64,000 nt of DNA from Escherichia coli (GTDB taxonomy: Bacteria; Pseudomonadota; Gammaproteobacteria; Enterobacterales; Enterobacteriaceae): the NCBI RefSeq assembly GCF_016026235.1, contig NZ_CP065613.1; one strand, given 5' to 3'. Shown here one piece after another: positions 3,068 to 19,824 of this stretch (position 1 is the first letter of the stretch; the number at the start of each line of letters is the position of its first letter). The notes beneath the pieces are model-generated. The model was not told the origin of the DNA. It saw only the letters and a list, made by a program, of their open reading frames with translations, and searched no databases. The position numbers were made by a program, and so were the translations under genes.

Positions 3068-4753
3068 TCAGGCTTTATTGTCCACTTTGCCGCGCGCTTC
3101 GTCACGTAATTCTCGTCGCAAAATTTTTCCGACGTTAGATTTCGGTAACTCATCACGAAACTCCACCAGCTTCGGTACTTTGTATCCCGTGAGCTGACGG
3201 CGGCAAAAAGTCACCAGTGACTCTTCGGTAAGCGATGGATCTTTTTTCACTACGAAGATTTTCACCGCTTCACCACTGGAGCCGGAAGGTACGCCAACAG
3301 CCGCGACTTCCTGTACGCCAGGATGCTGCATGACGACATCTTCAATCTCGTTGGGATAGACGTTAAAACCGGAAACCAGAATCATGTCTTTTTTACGATC
3401 GACAATGCGCAGGAATCCTTCTTCATCCATTACCGCGATGTCGCCGGTGTGTAACCAGCCATTTTTGATGATTTCATCGGTAGCATCGGGACGCTGCCAG
3501 TAACCCAGCATCACCTGCGGTCCTTTGACACAAAGCTCACCCGGTTGACCTGGTGGTACTTCATTATCATCATCATCCACCAGTTTGGCTTCCGTCGACG
3601 GCACCGGCAAACCGATGCTACCACTATGATAATCAATATCATATGGGTTAACGCTGACCAGCGGCGCACACTCGGTAAGGCCATAGCCTTCCAGCAGATA
3701 CTGTCCTGTCAGTTTCACCCAACGCTCTGCCACCACTTGCTGCACTGGCATCCCTCCGCCTGCGGAAAGATGCAGACTGGAGAAATCCAGCTGCTGGAAC
3801 TCTTTATTGTTCAGCAACGCATTGAACAAGGTGTTAACGCCCGTGATAGCGGTAAACGGATATTTCGCTAACTCTTTTACCAACCCTGGAATATCGCGCG
3901 GGTTAGTGATAAGCAGGTTCTGCCCACCCAGTTCGATAAACAGCAGGCAGTTAATGGTCAGGGCAAAAATGTGATACAGCGGCAGCGCCGTCACCACCAG
4001 CTCTTTGCCCGGATGCAACAGCGGACCATAGGTCGCGTTAACCTGTTCCAGGTTCGCCAGCATATTGCGGTGAGTCAGCATCGCGCCTTTCGCCACACCA
4101 GTGGTGCCGCCGGTGTATTGCAGAAAAGCTAAATCTTCCGGCACCAGTTCGGGTTTGACGTACTGCATCCGGTAGCCGTTATGCAGTGCGCTACGAAATG
4201 AAATGGCATCTGGCAGATGGTATTTCGGCACCAAACGCTTGATGTATTTAACAACGAAATTGACTACCGTGCCTTTTGCCGTAGATAGCTGATCGCCCAT
4301 ACGGGTCAGAATTACGTGCTGAACGGCGGTTTTATCAACCACTTTTTCCAGTGTGTGAGCAAAGTTAGACACGATAACAATCGCCGATGCGCCGCTATCG
4401 TTAAGCTGATGCTCAAGCTCACGCGGGGTATACAACGGGTTAACGTTTACGACGATCATCCCGGCACGCAAAATGCCAAACAGCGCCACCGGATATTGCA
4501 ATAAATTAGGCATCATCAACGCAACGCGATCGCCTTTCTTCAGCCCCAACCCTTGTTGCAAATAAGCGGCAAACGCGCGACTGCGTTCTTCCAGCTTGCG
4601 GAAGGTCATCACCTCCCCCATATTCACAAACGCAGGCTGATCGGCGTAGCGCGCGACCGACTGCTCAAACATATCTACCAGAGATTGATAACGGTCAGGG
4701 TTGATCTCCGTCGGAACGTCCGCGGGATAACGGTTAAGCCAAACCTTCTTCAA
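3068..4753 (-). CDS. fadD: long-chain fatty acid-CoA ligase FadD
   Basis: Protein recognised as FadD; annotated N-terminus MKKVWLNRY corresponds to a TTG start 22 codons inside the 583-aa track ORF. Confidence 0.9.
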
Positions 4754-15311: not shown

Positions 15312-15377
15312 CGCTGATATGACTTTCCGTGTCAAACCGGAATCTCTAATTTTGACGATTTTCTTTTTAGGTTTAAT

Positions 15378-15562
15378 TCCCTGAGGGCGACGTAGCAGTA
15401 AATCCGACGGTGAATCACGCTGATATTCGCGGGTTGGATACCGCATTACAGAGGTCCGTCATATGAGCCTGCCACTTTCTTACGTCGCGAATCAGCTTTG
15501 TTCCGCCGTCGCCAAGCGCTAACGTGGGTTACTCTTGTACTGGGCTACGTCGCCTTCAGGGA
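15378..15562. repeat. 19-bp imperfect inverted repeat pair (18/19) in the 3' non-coding end of the IS110-family element
   Basis: TCCCTGAGGGCGACGTAGC at 15378..15396 and GCTACGTCGCCTTCAGGGA at 15544..15562. Confidence 0.7.
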
Positions 15563-15618
15563 ACTGGTTATTCTCATTTTTTATTTGTGACATTGTGGTT
15601 GTTGTGCGACAGACATTG

Positions 15619-16707
15619 CTATTCGGCCCATATCCCAGATAAAACCCGCCAGCTCACGTGCAACAGCAACAATTGTAATATTGACATTCTTTCCTTTGGC
15701 CTGAAGTTTTCGATACCTCTTACAAAGCCTGAGTTGAGCATCCCATGCTCTGTCAATGACGGGGCGGGGTAAATTTTCCTGCCTTTTTGTATTGCCGGAC
15801 TGATGCGTGCCGGATGACGGTAACTCCACGCTGCCTCGACCAATAGCTTTCTGGCATAGCTGTTTCCGGCTTTGGTAATGCTGCCCTGATGTCTGCTTCC
15901 ACCCGATGAATATTCTGATGGCGTGATACCAAACCATGACATCAGTTGTCGTGGATGTTCAAAACGGGTCAGATCACCCAGTTCAGAAATTAATCCAACC
16001 GCAGTAATAAACTGAATCCCTCGCATGGCTTGCAGCGCCTCTACTACCGGATACAGCCTCCATTCGGTAACGGCCTCCTTCAGGGCGGATTCCAGCCGTT
16101 CACATTGTGCCTGCCGGTCTTCTATTGTACGACGGTGTTCGTCAAAAGCTAATTGTCGCCAGGGACTTTCGAATGAGTATTTGCTGAGCCAGCGTCGGTG
16201 TGCAGGGCCCCAATCTGCTCGCCCGACATAATGGACCCCATGAACCAGAAGAAACGATTTCAGACGTTGCCTTGCATGCCGTAAATCATCGCGGGCAGAT
16301 GCCCATGCCCGGGCCAAATCCCGGAATGCCTCATCTTCAATGCCGGGTACGTAGACAGCAGAAAGATCTCCTGCACGCAGTGAACGCACAAGTCTGATGG
16401 CATCACGGCGATCGGTTTTAACCCGCTCCCCCGGTTTTTTCGGGATAAGTGAGGGGGCGCAGACCATGCAGTCAAAACCGGATTTCACCAGCCGACGATA
16501 AAGTCCATAACCACAGGGCCCCGCTTCATAAACGATACTGACCTGCGATGACTTTGACCTGAGACGTTTACAAAGATTCTGAATATCAGTAGGTGATGTG
16601 CCAATTTTACCCATCAGTTCAACAGGTTCTGAATTGATAGCATAAGCGACAGTAATCGATTCTTTGTGAACATCTAACCCGACGTACAATGTGTTATTGT
16701 TGTTCAT
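15619..16707 (-). CDS. IS110-family transposase (DEDD RuvC-like N-terminal domain, IS116/IS110/IS902 C-terminal domain)
   Basis: N-terminus MNNNNTLYVGLDVHKESITVAYA and C-terminal ITAVGLISELGD...GITPSEYSSGGS...KAGNSYARKLL motifs; start taken at M17 of the 378-aa track ORF. Confidence 0.8.
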   Translation of the reverse strand: MNNNNTLYVGLDVHKESITVAYAINSEPVELMGKIGTSPTDIQNLCKRLRSKSSQVSIVYEAGPCGYGLYRRLVKSGFDCMVCAPSLIPKKPGERVKTDRRDAIRLVRSLRAGDLSAVYVPGIEDEAFRDLARAWASARDDLRHARQRLKSFLLVHGVHYVGRADWGPAHRRWLSKYSFESPWRQLAFDEHRRTIEDRQAQCERLESALKEAVTEWRLYPVVEALQAMRGIQFITAVGLISELGDLTRFEHPRQLMSWFGITPSEYSSGGSRHQGSITKAGNSYARKLLVEAAWSYRHPARISPAIQKGRKIYPAPSLTEHGMLNSGFVRGIENFRPKERMSILQLLLLHVSWRVLSGIWAE

Positions 16708-16833
16708 GCTGGCCTCCGTGGTGGAAATACCGGGGTGTAGCAACAGCTCACCCATGCGGCTCTGACAACGATGTTAACCCGCGTTAAATATCCCACGTTG
16801 GCCAGCATCTGTCTCACGGAAAGTCATACTGCC

Positions 16834-18390
16834 TTACTCATCTTCATCGTGCGCCGGTTGCTCTTTAACAATGCGAACCAGATCAACACGATAATCATTG
16901 GCTTCAATGATGGTGATATGCAGTGGCCCTACATCAATCACATCGCCCACACGGGGAATGTGACCATTTGCCGAGATCACGAGGCCCGCGACCGTCGCGA
17001 TATCATCGTCATCGGCAAGGTGCTCAACATCAAGCGCCTGCTGCAAGGCATGCAAATCTGTACCGCCTTTTACCAGCCAGCCGTCACCATCAGTAATGAT
17101 TTCCGGCGTTTCGTCAGCGTCCGGGAATTCACCCGCAATGGCTTCCAGCACATCCAGCGGCGTGACCAGACCTTGTACCACACCAAACTCGTTGGTCACG
17201 ATAACAAAGCTCCCGCGAGCACGACGCAGCACGCCCAACAGGTTGATCGGATCGAGGGTTTCCGGGACGATAATCGCCGGAGACGCCGAAGCAATCGCCG
17301 CCACATCAACGCCCTCTTCCAGCGCCACCAGCAGTTCTTTAGCACGTACGATTCCGATGATTTCATCCAGTTCACCGCGACATACCGGGAACAGGCTGTG
17401 CGGTGAGGAGAGCAGCTGCTCGCGGATTTCATCTACCCCGAGATTAGCGTCAACCCAGCTTATTTCACCGCGCGGCGTCATGATCCCGCGCAGAGAACGC
17501 GACGCCAGCGTCAGTACGCCGTTAATCATGTAACGTTCTTCTTCGGCAAATGCACCTTCCGGGATCGGCATCGGCATCGGGTTATCGGCATCGTGCTGAA
17601 CATTGGCCTGACGTTTCCCGCCCATCAAACGCAGGATAGCATCGGCAGTACGCGCTCGCAGCGGCAAAGTCGACTGGTGACGAATAAAGTTGCGACGCGC
17701 AATCTGGTTAAACACTTCGATGATGATCGAGAAGCCAATCGCGGCATACAGGTAACCTTTCGGAATGTGGAAACCGAAACCTTCTGCCACCAGACTCAGA
17801 CCAATCATTAACAGGAAGCTCAGACAGAGCACCACCACCGTGGGGTGCTGGTTAACGAATCGCGTCAGCGGTTTGGATGCCAGCAACATAACCGCCATCG
17901 CAATCACTACCGCCGCCATCATCACCGGCAGATGGTTAACCATCCCTACTGCAGTAATTACCGCATCCAACGAGAAGACGGCGTCAAGGATGACAATCTG
18001 TGTGACGACCACCCAGAAACTGGCGTAGCCTTTACCGTGGCCGGAATCATGATCGCGGTTTTCCAGCCGTTCATGCAGTTCGGTTGTTGCTTTGAACAGC
18101 AAGAATATCCCCCCGAACAACATAATCAGGTCGCGTCCGGAGAAGGAGAAATCCATGACGGTAAATAGCGGTTTGGTCAGCGTGACCATCCATGAAATCA
18201 GCGACAGCAGCCCCAGACGCATAATCAGCGCCAGTGATAACCCCAGCAAACGCGCTTTATCGCGTTGTTTTGGCGGCAGTTTGTCAGCAAGAATGGCGAT
18301 GAAGACCAGGTTATCGATACCCAGCACAATTTCGAGAACAACAAGCGTGAGTAGCCCCGCCCAAATTGAGGGGTCCATTAAGAATTCCAT
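16834..18390 (-). CDS. yoaE: TerC-family membrane protein with CBS and CorC/HlyC domains, YoaE
   Basis: 518-aa ORF recognised as YoaE. Confidence 0.9.
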
Positions 18391-18852
18391 GACAAGCTCC
18401 TGCTTAAGGAATAGCTATTCGACGCCAGAAATAATGCAGGCGTAACGACAAAATGCAAACGAAAGGTGCGGCATAGAGTGCCAGAAAGGCAGGCGCTAAA
18501 AGGCCTGATGCTGAAATGACGTCGGTGACGATCCATACTGCGGGCTACTGCCCTATACTCCATGGTTGTTAAACGGGAGTTAAACATATCAGAGACGCCT
18601 CTGATTTGGCAAAGATTTACCTTCCTTTGCAAACGAATGTGACAAGGATATTTTACCTTTCGAAATTTCTGATAATCGAAAGGTAAATTACGGATCTTCA
18701 TCACATAAAATAATTTTTTCGATATCTAAAATAAATCGCGAAACACAGGGGTTTTTGGTTGTAGCCCTTATCTGAATCGATTCGATTGTGGACGACGATT
18801 CAAAAATACATCTGGCACGTTGAGGTGTTAACGATAATAAAGGAGGTAGCAA

Positions 18853-19824
18853 GTGACCATTGCTATTGTTATAGGCACACATGGTTGGGCTGCAGAGCAG
18901 TTGCTTAAAACGGCAGAAATGCTGTTAGGCGAGCAGGAAAACGTCGGCTGGATCGATTTCGTTCCAGGTGAAAATGCCGAAACGCTGATTGAAAAGTACA
19001 ACGCTCAGTTGGCAAAACTCGACACCACTAAAGGCGTGCTGTTTCTCGTTGATACATGGGGAGGCAGCCCGTTCAATGCTGCCAGCCGCATTGTCGTCGA
19101 CAAAGAGCATTATGAAGTCATTGCAGGCGTTAACATTCCAATGCTCGTGGAAACGTTAATGGCCCGTGATGATGACCCAAGCTTTGATGAACTGGTTGCG
19201 CTGGCAGTAGAAACAGGCCGTGAAGGCGTGAAAGCGCTGAAAGCCAAACCGGTTGAAAAAGCCGCGCCAGCACCCGCTGCCGCAGCACCAAAAGCGGCTC
19301 CAACTCCGGCAAAACCAATGGGGCCAAACGACTACATGGTTATTGGCCTTGCGCGTATCGACGACCGTCTGATTCACGGTCAGGTCGCCACCCGCTGGAC
19401 CAAAGAAACCAATGTCTCCCGTATTATTGTTGTTAGTGATGAAGTGGCTGCGGATACCGTTCGTAAGACACTGCTCACCCAGGTTGCACCTCCGGGCGTA
19501 ACAGCACACGTAGTTGATGTTGCCAAAATGATTCGCGTCTACAACAACCCGAAATATGCTGGCGAACGTGTAATGCTGTTATTTACCAACCCAACAGATG
19601 TAGAGCGTCTCGTTGAAGGCGGCGTGAAAATCACCTCTGTTAACGTCGGTGGTATGGCATTCCGTCAGGGTAAAACCCAGGTGAATAACGCGGTTTCGGT
19701 TGATGAAAAAGATATCGAGGCGTTCAAAAAACTGAATGCACGCGGTATTGAGCTGGAAGTCCGTAAGGTTTCCACCGATCCGAAACTGAAAATGATGGAT
19801 CTGATCAGCAAAATCGATAAGTAA
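18853..19824 (+). CDS. manX: PTS mannose transporter subunit EIIAB
   Basis: 323-aa ORF with Ala/Pro-rich hinge; GTG start after AGGAGG. Confidence 0.9.
   Translation: MTIAIVIGTHGWAAEQLLKTAEMLLGEQENVGWIDFVPGENAETLIEKYNAQLAKLDTTKGVLFLVDTWGGSPFNAASRIVVDKEHYEVIAGVNIPMLVETLMARDDDPSFDELVALAVETGREGVKALKAKPVEKAAPAPAAAAPKAAPTPAKPMGPNDYMVIGLARIDDRLIHGQVATRWTKETNVSRIIVVSDEVAADTVRKTLLTQVAPPGVTAHVVDVAKMIRVYNNPKYAGERVMLLFTNPTDVERLVEGGVKITSVNVGGMAFRQGKTQVNNAVSVDEKDIEAFKKLNARGIELEVRKVSTDPKLKMMDLISKIDK

What the first reader, a model, noticed from the sequence alone, without database searches (positions are those of the whole stretch)
18652..18687. Perfect 12-bp palindrome with 12-nt spacer in the yoaE-manX divergent region
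TTTACCTTTCGA (18652..18663) and TCGAAAGGTAAA (18676..18687) are exact reverse complements; a related TTTACCTT copy sits about 35 bp upstream. It lies in the shared control region of yoaE (minus) and manXYZ (plus). It could be a dimeric regulator operator or an RNA stem in the yoaE leader. I could not assign it to a known site from memory.
Basis: seen in the sequence. Interest (0 to 1): 0.3.

Follow-up and report, generated by a model that had tools for sequence, protein, structure and literature searches.

The report
Known NagC operator, rare perfect-palindrome allele
The left half of this palindrome is the already-described upstream NagC repressor site of the E. coli mannose-transporter (manX) promoter, and the perfect symmetry comes from a rare single-base variant of this strain, so the finding is essentially ordinary.

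Summary
It is not a functional unit.

The left arm is the core of the published 23-bp distal NagC operator of manX, GATATTTTACCTTTCGAAATTTC (18647-18669). Its centre is at -80 from the manX start. Its own symmetry axis is 18658, not the palindrome axis at 18669.5.

The right arm fills the gap between that operator and the CRP site at -40.5. Outside Escherichia it is not conserved, apart from the TAAATTA that flanks the CRP site.

The perfect 12/12 match depends on a G at 18683. K-12 and 5394 of 5423 complete E. coli genomes have T there, giving 11/12. Only 4 genomes have G. Those 4 lie on three different local haplotypes, which fits recurrent "quasipalindrome correction" by replication template switching.

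Across Enterobacteriaceae, what is conserved is a NagC-type site exactly 39.5 bp upstream of the CRP centre.

An RNA stem in the yoaE leader is not supported. The upstream TTTACCTT copy belongs to the conserved CpxR box of the yoaE/mgpA promoter.

Verdict: already known, low interest.

The parts
18652..18663 (.). Left arm of the palindrome, TTTACCTTTCGA. It covers positions -6 to +5 of the distal NagC operator.
   Evidence: It lies inside the 23-mer listed as 'man distal' in FITBAR Table 1.
18676..18687 (.). Right arm, TCGAAAGGTAAA. It sits between the NagC operator and the CRP site and is TCGAAAGTTAAA in nearly all E. coli.
   Evidence: Only TAAA(TTA) at its 3' end is conserved across genera. 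As a NagC site on the minus strand it scores only 5.9 bits.
18647..18669 (+). Distal NagC operator of manX, GATATTTTACCTTTCGAAATTTC. Its centre is 18658, which is -80 from the manX start.
   Evidence: The sequence is listed as a known NagC site (PMC3098098). It has TT at -6,-5, AA at +5,+6, and G/C at -11/+11, as defined in PMC4288165. A leave-one-out matrix gives 16.3 bits, second best in the 64 kb. In 51 of 54 species with a site, the centre is 39.5 bp from the CRP centre.
18683..18683 (.). G, where the species-typical base is T. This is the single base that makes the palindrome perfect. It is at -55 of manX.
   Evidence: G occurs in 4 of 5423 genomes, on 3 local haplotypes.
18672..18672 (.). 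A, where the species-typical base is C. This second rare variant is in the spacer and has no bearing on the symmetry.
18687..18708 (+). CRP (CAP) site of the manX promoter, ATTACGGATCTTCATCACATAA. Its centre is 18697.5, which is -40.5.
   Evidence: The TCACA half-site is at 18701-18705. Mean column identity is 0.95 over 80 sequences. manX is a known CRP target. The -40.5 position follows from the 115-nt UTR and agrees with my recollection of Plumbridge 1998.
18712..18735 (+). Proximal Mlc-type (A/T at +-11) Mlc/NagC operator, overlapping the -10 element TAAAAT (18727-18732). Its centre is 18723/18724, about -14.5.
   Evidence: Matrix hit. Mean identity is 0.85. It lies 25.5-26.5 bp from the CRP centre in all 73 species scored.
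18738..18738 (+). manX transcription start, derived from the UTR length.
   Evidence: The 115-nt 5' UTR is stated in PMC3089445. The GTG start codon is at 18853.
18616..18633 (-). CpxR box of the yoaE/mgpA promoter: GCAAAGGAAGGTAAA on the yoaE strand. It contains the 'related TTTACCTT copy'.
   Evidence: One search gives the predicted CpxR sites and the adjacent footprint GCAAAGAGATGT in Salmonella, which corresponds to 18629-18640 here. The EMSA probe corresponds to window 18605-18654. Mean identity is 0.85.

Best explanation
**What it is.** The feature is two unrelated things that happen to be complementary.

1. The left arm is the central part of the known distal NagC operator of the manXYZ promoter (18647-18669, centred at -80).
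2. The right arm is spacer DNA between that operator and the class-II CRP site at -40.5.

**How the operator works.** NagC bound at -80 is thought to cooperate with a repressor bound at the Mlc-type operator over the -10 region (about -14.5, some 65-66 bp away). This would loop out the CRP-bound DNA and lower manXYZ transcription when no amino sugar is present. The loop is inferred by analogy with nagE-nagB.

**Where the symmetry comes from.** In ordinary E. coli the two arms are an 11/12 quasipalindrome, which is likely chance or lineage history. In this strain a T-to-G change at 18683 (-55) made it perfect. The most likely cause is quasipalindrome template switching during replication, in which the nascent strand copies the opposite arm.

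**Shown versus inferred.**
- Shown here: identity of the operator sequence, its defining positions, its fixed distance from the CRP site across genera, the rarity of the G allele, and its presence on several haplotypes.
- Inferred: DNA looping at manX, and the template-switch origin of the G.
For: - **Operator identity:** GATATTTTACCTTTCGAAATTTC is listed as the 'man distal' NagC site and maps to yoaE/manX.
- **Defining positions:** it meets the published definition of NagC sites, with TT/AA at +-5,6 and G/C at +-11 (sequence).
- **Score:** a matrix built from the nine other NagC sites gives 16.3 bits, second best of about 128,000 positions.
- **Promoter geometry:** the 115-nt UTR puts +1 at 18738. 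That places the CRP centre at -40.5 and the two operator centres at -80 and about -14.5.
- **Conservation across genera:** 49 of 80 sequences keep a site of 10 bits or more at the orthologous place. The T-run and A-run are conserved and the centre varies. The site centre is 39.5 bp from the CRP centre in 51 of 54 species.
- **Right arm:** identity of the window base G18683 across the 80 sequences is about 0.1. The inner part of the arm sits at background level (0.4-0.7). Arm complementarity is mostly 4-6/12.
- **Allele counts:** T allele 5394 of 5423, G allele 2 + 2.
- **Haplotypes:** G occurs on 3 haplotypes that differ by 37-47 sites over 5.87 kb. Flanking variants 11 bp to the left and 62 bp to the right disagree with common descent.
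- **Mechanism precedent:** quasipalindrome mutations make imperfect repeats perfect by template switching in E. coli.
- **Asymmetry of correction:** the mirror-image correction inside the operator (C18656A) is seen in 0 genomes.
Against: - The primary footprinting papers (Plumbridge & Kolb 1991, Plumbridge 1998) are not held, so the operator assignment rests on a secondary table and on sequence rules.
- NagC binding was not measured for this allele.
- An 11/12 quasipalindrome occurs in only 1.4% of shuffles of the intergenic region, so chance is plausible but not proven.
- CGAAA-N11-CGAAA persists in Escherichia, Salmonella and Citrobacter. This could hide an extra weak site.
- Four G genomes is a small sample. 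Short gene-conversion tracts under about 70 bp could mimic recurrence.
Confidence: 0.85

Rival explanations
1. The whole 36-bp inverted repeat is the operator of another dimeric or tetrameric regulator. It would bind two 12-bp half-sites 24 bp apart, centred at -68.5 of manX, and act on manX and/or yoaE.
For: The perfect 12-bp arms are very unlikely by chance in this allele. Some TTCGA...TCGAA symmetry remains in Salmonella and Citrobacter.
Against: - The perfect form is present in only 4 of 5423 genomes.
- Orthologous arms are mostly 4-6/12 complementary.
- Conservation in the region follows the NagC pattern (T-run and A-run 11 bp apart), not the arms.
- The left arm is already accounted for by NagC.
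Confidence: 0.05
2. The repeat forms an RNA hairpin in a long yoaL-yoaE (mgpA) leader, or in an upstream manX transcript, and controls translation or termination.
For: The window allele folds to -13.6 and -15.1 kcal/mol, with z-scores of -3.9 and -5.2. yoaE does have leader-based control through the small ORF yoaL.
Against: - It lies upstream of the manX +1 at 18738. It also lies upstream of the PhoP and CpxR boxes that mark the yoaE promoters.
- No Rfam match reaches a gathering score, and no terminator-like site is found.
- The common allele folds to only -6.9 and -8.4 kcal/mol, and 19 and 8 of 200 shuffles do as well.
- Changes in relatives are not compensatory.
Confidence: 0.02
3. The GGTAAA in each arm and in the upstream copy are CpxR (or other OmpR-family) half-sites, so the palindrome is an accessory activator site for yoaE/mgpA.
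For: CpxR directly activates yoaE, and its box GCAAA-N5-GTAAA is 20 bp away. The left half resembles OmpR-type TTTAC sites; this resemblance is from my own memory and was not tested.
Against: - Neither arm has a partner pentamer at N5 spacing.
- The right-arm GTAAA exists only in the rare G allele; the common allele has GTTAAA.
- The Salmonella probe that binds CpxR-P ends at the position equivalent to 18654 and lacks the arms.
- The DNase I footprint maps to the equivalent of 18629-18640.
Confidence: 0.04
4. The G at 18683 is an ordinary random substitution, spread by descent or by short recombination tracts. Its perfecting of the palindrome is coincidence, not template switching.
For: Only four genomes carry it, and short conversion tracts cannot be excluded. 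A second rare variant at 18672, unrelated to the symmetry, sits 11 bp away in this strain.
Against: - The same T-to-G change occurs on three haplotypes with discordant flanking variants.
- It accounts for 4 of the 29 genomes that depart from the K-12 61-mer, out of 183 possible single changes.
- It is exactly the change templated by the other arm.
Confidence: 0.3

Closest known systems
NagC operators of the nagE-nagB divergent region (ROK-family repressor NagC, with two operators looped around a CAP site)
   Same: - A 23-bp quasi-palindromic site with TT/AA at +-5,6 and G/C at +-11.
- A second operator on the other side of a CRP site.
- The sequence itself is catalogued as a NagC site ('man distal').
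   Different: - At manX the partner operator is Mlc-type (A/T at +-11). From memory of Plumbridge 1998, Mlc is the main repressor there and NagC has a minor effect.
- The operator spacing is about 65-66 bp. From memory, the nagE-nagB spacing is 93 bp.
Quasipalindrome-associated template-switch mutation hotspots in E. coli (thyA hotspot, lacZ QP reporters; Ripley model)
   Same: An imperfect inverted repeat (11/12 arms, 12-nt spacer) is converted to a perfect one by the single change that the opposite arm would template. The change appears to recur in independent lineages.
   Different: It is seen here only as natural polymorphism in four genomes. No rate was measured, and there is no evidence on strand or replication direction.
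CpxR box (GTAAA-N5-GTAAA) of the yoaE/mgpA promoter
   Same: The 'related TTTACCTT copy' at 18616-18623 is the GTAAA half of GCAAAGGAAGGTAAA. It is conserved across Enterobacteriaceae and lies inside the CpxR-binding probe.
   Different: The palindrome arms carry isolated pentamers without a tandem partner and lie outside the probe and the footprint.

Membership tests
NagC/Mlc (ROK repressor) operator | 23-bp quasi-palindrome with invariant TT at -6,-5 and AA at +5,+6 around the centre | tested here: met
   With the centre at 18658: T18652, T18653, A18663, A18664. The rule is from PMC4288165.
NagC/Mlc (ROK repressor) operator | C or G at +-11 marks NagC-type (high-affinity) sites; A or T marks Mlc-type sites | tested here: met
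   G18647 and C18669 make the distal site NagC-type. The proximal site has A/A, making it Mlc-type.
NagC/Mlc (ROK repressor) operator | Resemblance to the other experimentally defined NagC sites | tested here: met
   A leave-one-out matrix from 9 sites gives 16.3 bits, within the 14.3-23.4 range of the training sites. Only one other position in the 64 kb scores higher.
NagC/Mlc (ROK repressor) operator | Demonstrated binding of NagC (footprint or EMSA) | not testable with these tools
   It is listed as a known site compiled from Plumbridge's work. The primary papers are not held.
NagC/Mlc (ROK repressor) operator | Conserved presence and position relative to the promoter in related genomes | tested here: met
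   49 of 80 sequences have a site of 10 bits or more. The centre is 39.5 bp from the CRP centre in 51 of 54 species.
NagC/Mlc (ROK repressor) operator | Cooperative binding or looping with a second operator | not testable with these tools
   A second operator exists 65-66 bp away. Looping at manX is inferred from nagE-nagB (reference titles).
Operator formed by the 36-bp palindrome itself | Both half-sites conserved and symmetric in relatives | tested here: not met
   Arm complementarity is 10-11/12 only in two close Escherichia relatives and mostly 4-6/12 elsewhere. The perfect form is found in 4 of 5423 E. coli genomes.
CpxR box | Two GTAAA-like pentamers as direct repeats separated by 5 bp | tested here: not met
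   The arms carry single pentamers with no partner. The criterion is met instead by 18617-18631 (GCAAA-N5-GTAAA on the minus strand). The consensus itself is recalled from memory.
Structured cis-regulatory RNA or leader hairpin | Lies in a transcript, with a stem supported by covariation or an Rfam model | tested here: not met
   The best Rfam hits are miRNA models at 20 bits against cut-offs of 70-83. It lies upstream of manX +1. Changes in Salmonella and Citrobacter are not compensatory. No TSS map for yoaE was available.
Intrinsic terminator | GC-rich stem followed by a T run | tested here: not met
   No terminator-like sites in 18350-18900. The stem is AT-rich with a 12-nt loop.
Quasipalindrome template-switch mutation | The ancestral repeat is imperfect, and the derived change raises complementarity and equals the base templated by the other arm | tested here: met
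   T is the state in K-12, in E. albertii and in other Escherichia. G pairs with C18656 and gives 12/12.
Quasipalindrome template-switch mutation | Recurrence at the same site in independent lineages (hotspot behaviour) | tested here: inconclusive
   Three local haplotypes carry G, but there are only four genomes and no whole-genome phylogeny.

The most novel reading that the evidence does not exclude
The quasipalindrome is more than NagC operator plus spacer. One possibility is an unidentified regulator, restricted to the Escherichia-Salmonella-Citrobacter clade, that recognises the TTCGA-N12-TCGAA / CGAAA-N11-CGAAA pattern between NagC and CRP. The other is that the recurrent T-to-G allele is positively selected because it changes manXYZ or mgpA expression. 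In that case the rare perfect palindrome would be a naturally arising regulatory variant rather than a neutral product of template switching.
Probability: 0.06. Interest if true: 0.35.

Novelty: already known. Interest (0 to 1): 0.1.

Why it matters
It matters little for biology. The manX control region, with CRP at -40.5 and distal and proximal NagC/Mlc operators, has been described since the 1990s, and the left arm is simply that distal operator.

There are two modest points of value:
1. It is a caution for scanning. A "perfect palindrome" in one strain can be a rare allele. Here it is found in 4 of 5423 genomes and overlies a known site whose own symmetry axis is elsewhere.
2. It is a small natural example that fits quasipalindrome correction by template switching in wild E. 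coli. The correction is seen only on the arm outside the operator, and never on the arm inside it.

Tried and rejected
- **Rfam scan of 18200-19000 at E up to 10:** only sub-threshold miRNA-like hairpin hits.
- **Promoter and terminator scan:** no terminator. The only nearby promoter-like site on the yoaE strand (18612-18583) lies downstream of the palindrome in the yoaE direction.
- **Strict search for the palindrome in 80 related loci:** none found, which prompted the allele check.
- **Primary literature:** Plumbridge 1998, Plumbridge 2001 NAR, El Qaidi 2008 and Plumbridge 1995 EMBO are not held.
- **Second NagC site on the right arm (minus strand 18670-18692):** 5.9 bits, with A,T instead of AA at +5,+6. 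Rejected.
- **CpxR accessory site:** rejected on spacing, on the allele, and on the probe and footprint position.
- **OmpR, NarL, Fur, IHF and ArcA look-alikes:** considered from memory only, with no convincing match. Not pursued because NagC explains the conserved positions.
- **TSS information for mgpA in the 2025 mBio paper:** none given.
- **Paper on c-di-GMP and PTS genes in Salmonella:** no promoter details.

Full report
**Observation**

The window is E. coli. The yoaE-manX intergenic region matches 5423 of 5426 complete genomes. RefSeq annotates yoaE (CNNM/CorC-family cation transport protein, called MgpA in Salmonella), the leader ORF yoaL, and manXYZ around it.

TTTACCTTTCGA (18652-18663) and TCGAAAGGTAAA (18676-18687) are exact reverse complements with a 12-nt spacer. 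A second TTTACCTT lies at 18616-18623. A perfect 12-bp inverted repeat with a spacer of 20 nt or less appeared in 1 of 2000 dinucleotide shuffles of the 462-bp intergenic region. The whole window has four such loci, against 0.08 expected.

**The perfect match is a rare allele**

K-12 differs at two bases: C instead of A at 18672 in the spacer, and T instead of G at 18683 in the right arm. Its arms therefore match 11/12.

Counts for the 61-mer 18640-18700 among 5423 complete genomes:

| 18672 / 18683 | Arms | Genomes | Call |
|---|---|---|---|
| C / T (K-12 type) | 11/12 | 5394 | 33 |
| A / T | 11/12 | 5 | 70 |
| C / G | 12/12 | 2 | 34 |
| A / G (window type) | 12/12 | 2 | 27 |
| other variants | – | about 20 | by difference |

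For an 11/12 repeat, 1.4% of shuffles of the intergenic region do as well. As RNA, the common allele folds to only -6.9 and -8.4 kcal/mol on the two strands (z -1.4 and -2.1). The window allele folds to -13.6 and -15.1 kcal/mol (z -3.9 and -5.2).

**What the left arm is**

A full-text search for the arm sequences found one paper. Its table of experimentally known NagC sites, compiled from J. Plumbridge's work, lists GATATTTTACCTTTCGAAATTTC as 'man distal'. The paper's genome scan places it between yoaE and manX. This 23-mer is window 18647-18669, and the left arm is its positions -6 to +5.

The published definition of NagC/Mlc sites is a 23-bp quasi-palindrome. Only TT/AA at positions +-5,6 are invariant. 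C/G at +-11 marks NagC sites and A/T marks Mlc sites. The site meets all of these: T18652, T18653, A18663, A18664, G18647 and C18669.

A weight matrix built from the nine other listed NagC sites scores it 16.3 bits. That is the second-best position in the 64 kb.

**Promoter geometry**

The manX 5' UTR is 115 nt, so +1 is 18738. This gives the following layout:

| Element | Coordinates | Centre relative to +1 |
|---|---|---|
| Distal NagC operator | 18647-18669 | -80 |
| Palindrome (whole) | 18652-18687 (-86 to -51) | -68.5 (axis 18669.5) |
| CRP site (TCACA at 18701-18705) | 18687-18708 | -40.5 |
| -10 element TAAAAT | 18727-18732 | – |
| Proximal Mlc-type operator | 18712-18735 | about -14.5 |

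The -40.5 position agrees with my memory of Plumbridge 1998. The palindrome axis is 11.5 bp from the operator axis. The right arm abuts the CRP site.

**Comparative evidence**

I fetched 80 manX loci from Enterobacteriaceae genomes and aligned them with the window. Mean column identity to the window was as follows:

| Segment | Mean identity |
|---|---|
| CRP site | 0.95 |
| Cra-like CTGAATCGATTCG in the leader | 0.92 |
| CpxR box | 0.85 |
| Proximal operator | 0.85 |
| NagC distal site | 0.66 |
| Left arm | 0.65 |
| Right arm | 0.65 |
| Spacer | 0.55 |
| Unremarkable leader segment (18740-18770) | 0.57 |

- Inside the distal site, the conserved columns are the T-run and the A-run, while the centre varies. 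Examples are ACCTTTCG, GCGCTGCG and ACACCACG. This is the NagC/Mlc pattern.
- 49 of 80 sequences keep a site of 10 bits or more at the orthologous place.
- In 51 of the 54 species with a site of 8 bits or more, the site centre is exactly 39.5 bp from the CRP centre. The proximal operator is 25.5 or 26.5 bp on the other side in all 73 species scored.
- In the right arm only the terminal TAAA, continuing into TAAATTA next to the CRP site, is conserved. The window's G at 18683 has about 0.1 identity.
- Orthologous arms are mostly 4-6/12 complementary. Only two close Escherichia relatives reach 10-11/12.
- Salmonella (TTTACACTTCGA / TCGAAAACAAAA) and Citrobacter changes are not compensatory.

The conserved functional unit is therefore the NagC operator at a fixed distance from CRP, not the palindrome.

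**The yoaE side**

The upstream TTTACCTT copy is the GTAAA half of GCAAAGGAAGGTAAA on the yoaE strand (18617-18631). This is a one-mismatch CpxR box, and the consensus is from my own knowledge.

In Salmonella Enteritidis, two overlapping CpxR sites were predicted here. CpxR-P protected GCAAAGAGATGT, which corresponds to GCAAACGAATGT at 18629-18640. The 50-bp probe that bound CpxR-P corresponds to window 18605-18654 and does not contain the arms.

The PhoP box aTGTTTAactccCGTTTAa, footprinted in Shigella, is at 18570-18586 on the minus strand. yoaL starts at 18536.

All known yoaE promoter elements therefore lie downstream of the palindrome in the yoaE direction, and the manX start lies downstream of it in the other direction. 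No Rfam family and no terminator-like site was found. I found no TSS map for yoaE, so an unknown upstream start cannot be formally excluded.

**Origin of the perfect form**

Over 5.87 kb of shared flanks, pairwise differences between strains are:

| Pair | Differences |
|---|---|
| Window vs EC2641 | 3 |
| Window type vs STEC1585 | 41-42 |
| Window type vs OkiPb01695 | 37 |
| STEC1585 vs OkiPb01695 | 47 |
| STEC1585 vs K-12 (T allele) | 26 |

STEC1585 is thus closer to K-12, which carries T, than to the other G carriers. The nearest flanking variants, at 18672 (11 bp away) and 18745 (62 bp away), disagree with common descent of the G.

The G allele therefore sits on three haplotypes. It accounts for 4 of the 29 genomes that depart from the K-12 61-mer. 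It is also exactly the base that the opposite arm would template.

In E. coli, quasipalindromes are known hotspots. A replication template switch makes the repeat "perfect or more perfect", and perfect inverted repeats in Proteobacteria are thought to be maintained in this way.

The mirror-image correction, C18656A at position -2 inside the NagC operator, is found in no genome. With these numbers that is only suggestive of selection on the operator.

I rate the template-switch origin as likely but unproven.

**Mechanism**

- Shown here: the sequence identity, the rule-based and matrix-based match, and the positional conservation of the distal NagC operator. Also shown are the positions of the CRP site and the proximal operator.
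- Taken from the literature: NagC represses manXYZ, manX is a CRP target, and at nagE-nagB repression needs a loop between two operators (reference titles).
- Inferred: NagC at -80 and a repressor at about -14.5, which are 65-66 bp or roughly six helical turns apart, cooperate around the CRP-bent DNA at manX.
- From memory only: Mlc is the main repressor and NagC the minor one (Plumbridge 1998).

The G at -55 lies outside the 23-bp operator and outside the 22-bp CRP site. I expect no large effect from it, but this was not tested.

**Verdict**

The element is already known. What is new is minor: the perfect palindrome is a rare allele that appears to be recurrent.

Noticed in passing
window 15316-16832: A roughly 1.5-kb insertion relative to K-12, sitting exactly between the convergent 3' ends of pdeD and yoaE. 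It carries a 378-aa minus-strand ORF with IS110-family transposase domains (PF01548, PF02371). It is absent from FDAARGOS_943, EC2641 and K-12, so the window strain is not one of those.
   Followed up: partly
window 18772-18785: CTGAATCGATTCG in the manX 5' UTR (about +35 to +48) is almost invariant across 80 Enterobacteriaceae sequences (mean identity 0.92). It resembles the Cra (FruR) operator consensus as I remember it. I did not check it against the literature.
   Followed up: no
L054, L058, L074, L075, L059 and related Enterobacter loci, at the position orthologous to window 18652-18687: In the Enterobacter cloacae complex the NagC-like distal site is weak (about 1-9 bits). A different palindrome, CCTTACAG-AAAAAT-CTGTAAGG, occupies the same place upstream of the CRP site. 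This suggests a lineage-specific replacement of the upstream operator.
   Followed up: no
window 3105-3127: CGTAATTCTCGTCGCAAAATTTT is the best match to the NagC matrix in the whole window (21.3 bits). It lies inside the 3' end of what I read as fadD coding sequence. It may be chance or an unrecorded intragenic NagC site.
   Followed up: partly
window 18378-18586 (minus strand): The yoaL leader ORF (52 aa) overlaps the yoaE start. It is preceded by a conserved PhoP box (TGTTTAACTCCCGTTTA, 18586..18570) and a conserved GGGC-N4-GCCC hairpin just before the yoaL ATG. Salmonella carries a 9-bp insertion inside yoaL. How this Mg-related leader works is stated to be unresolved.
   Followed up: partly
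window 18640-18700: This 61-bp stretch is identical in 5394 of 5423 complete E. coli genomes. By contrast, the whole 462-bp intergenic region is below 99% identical to the window in 3241 genomes. The NagC-CRP part of the region therefore seems unusually invariant within the species.
   Followed up: partly
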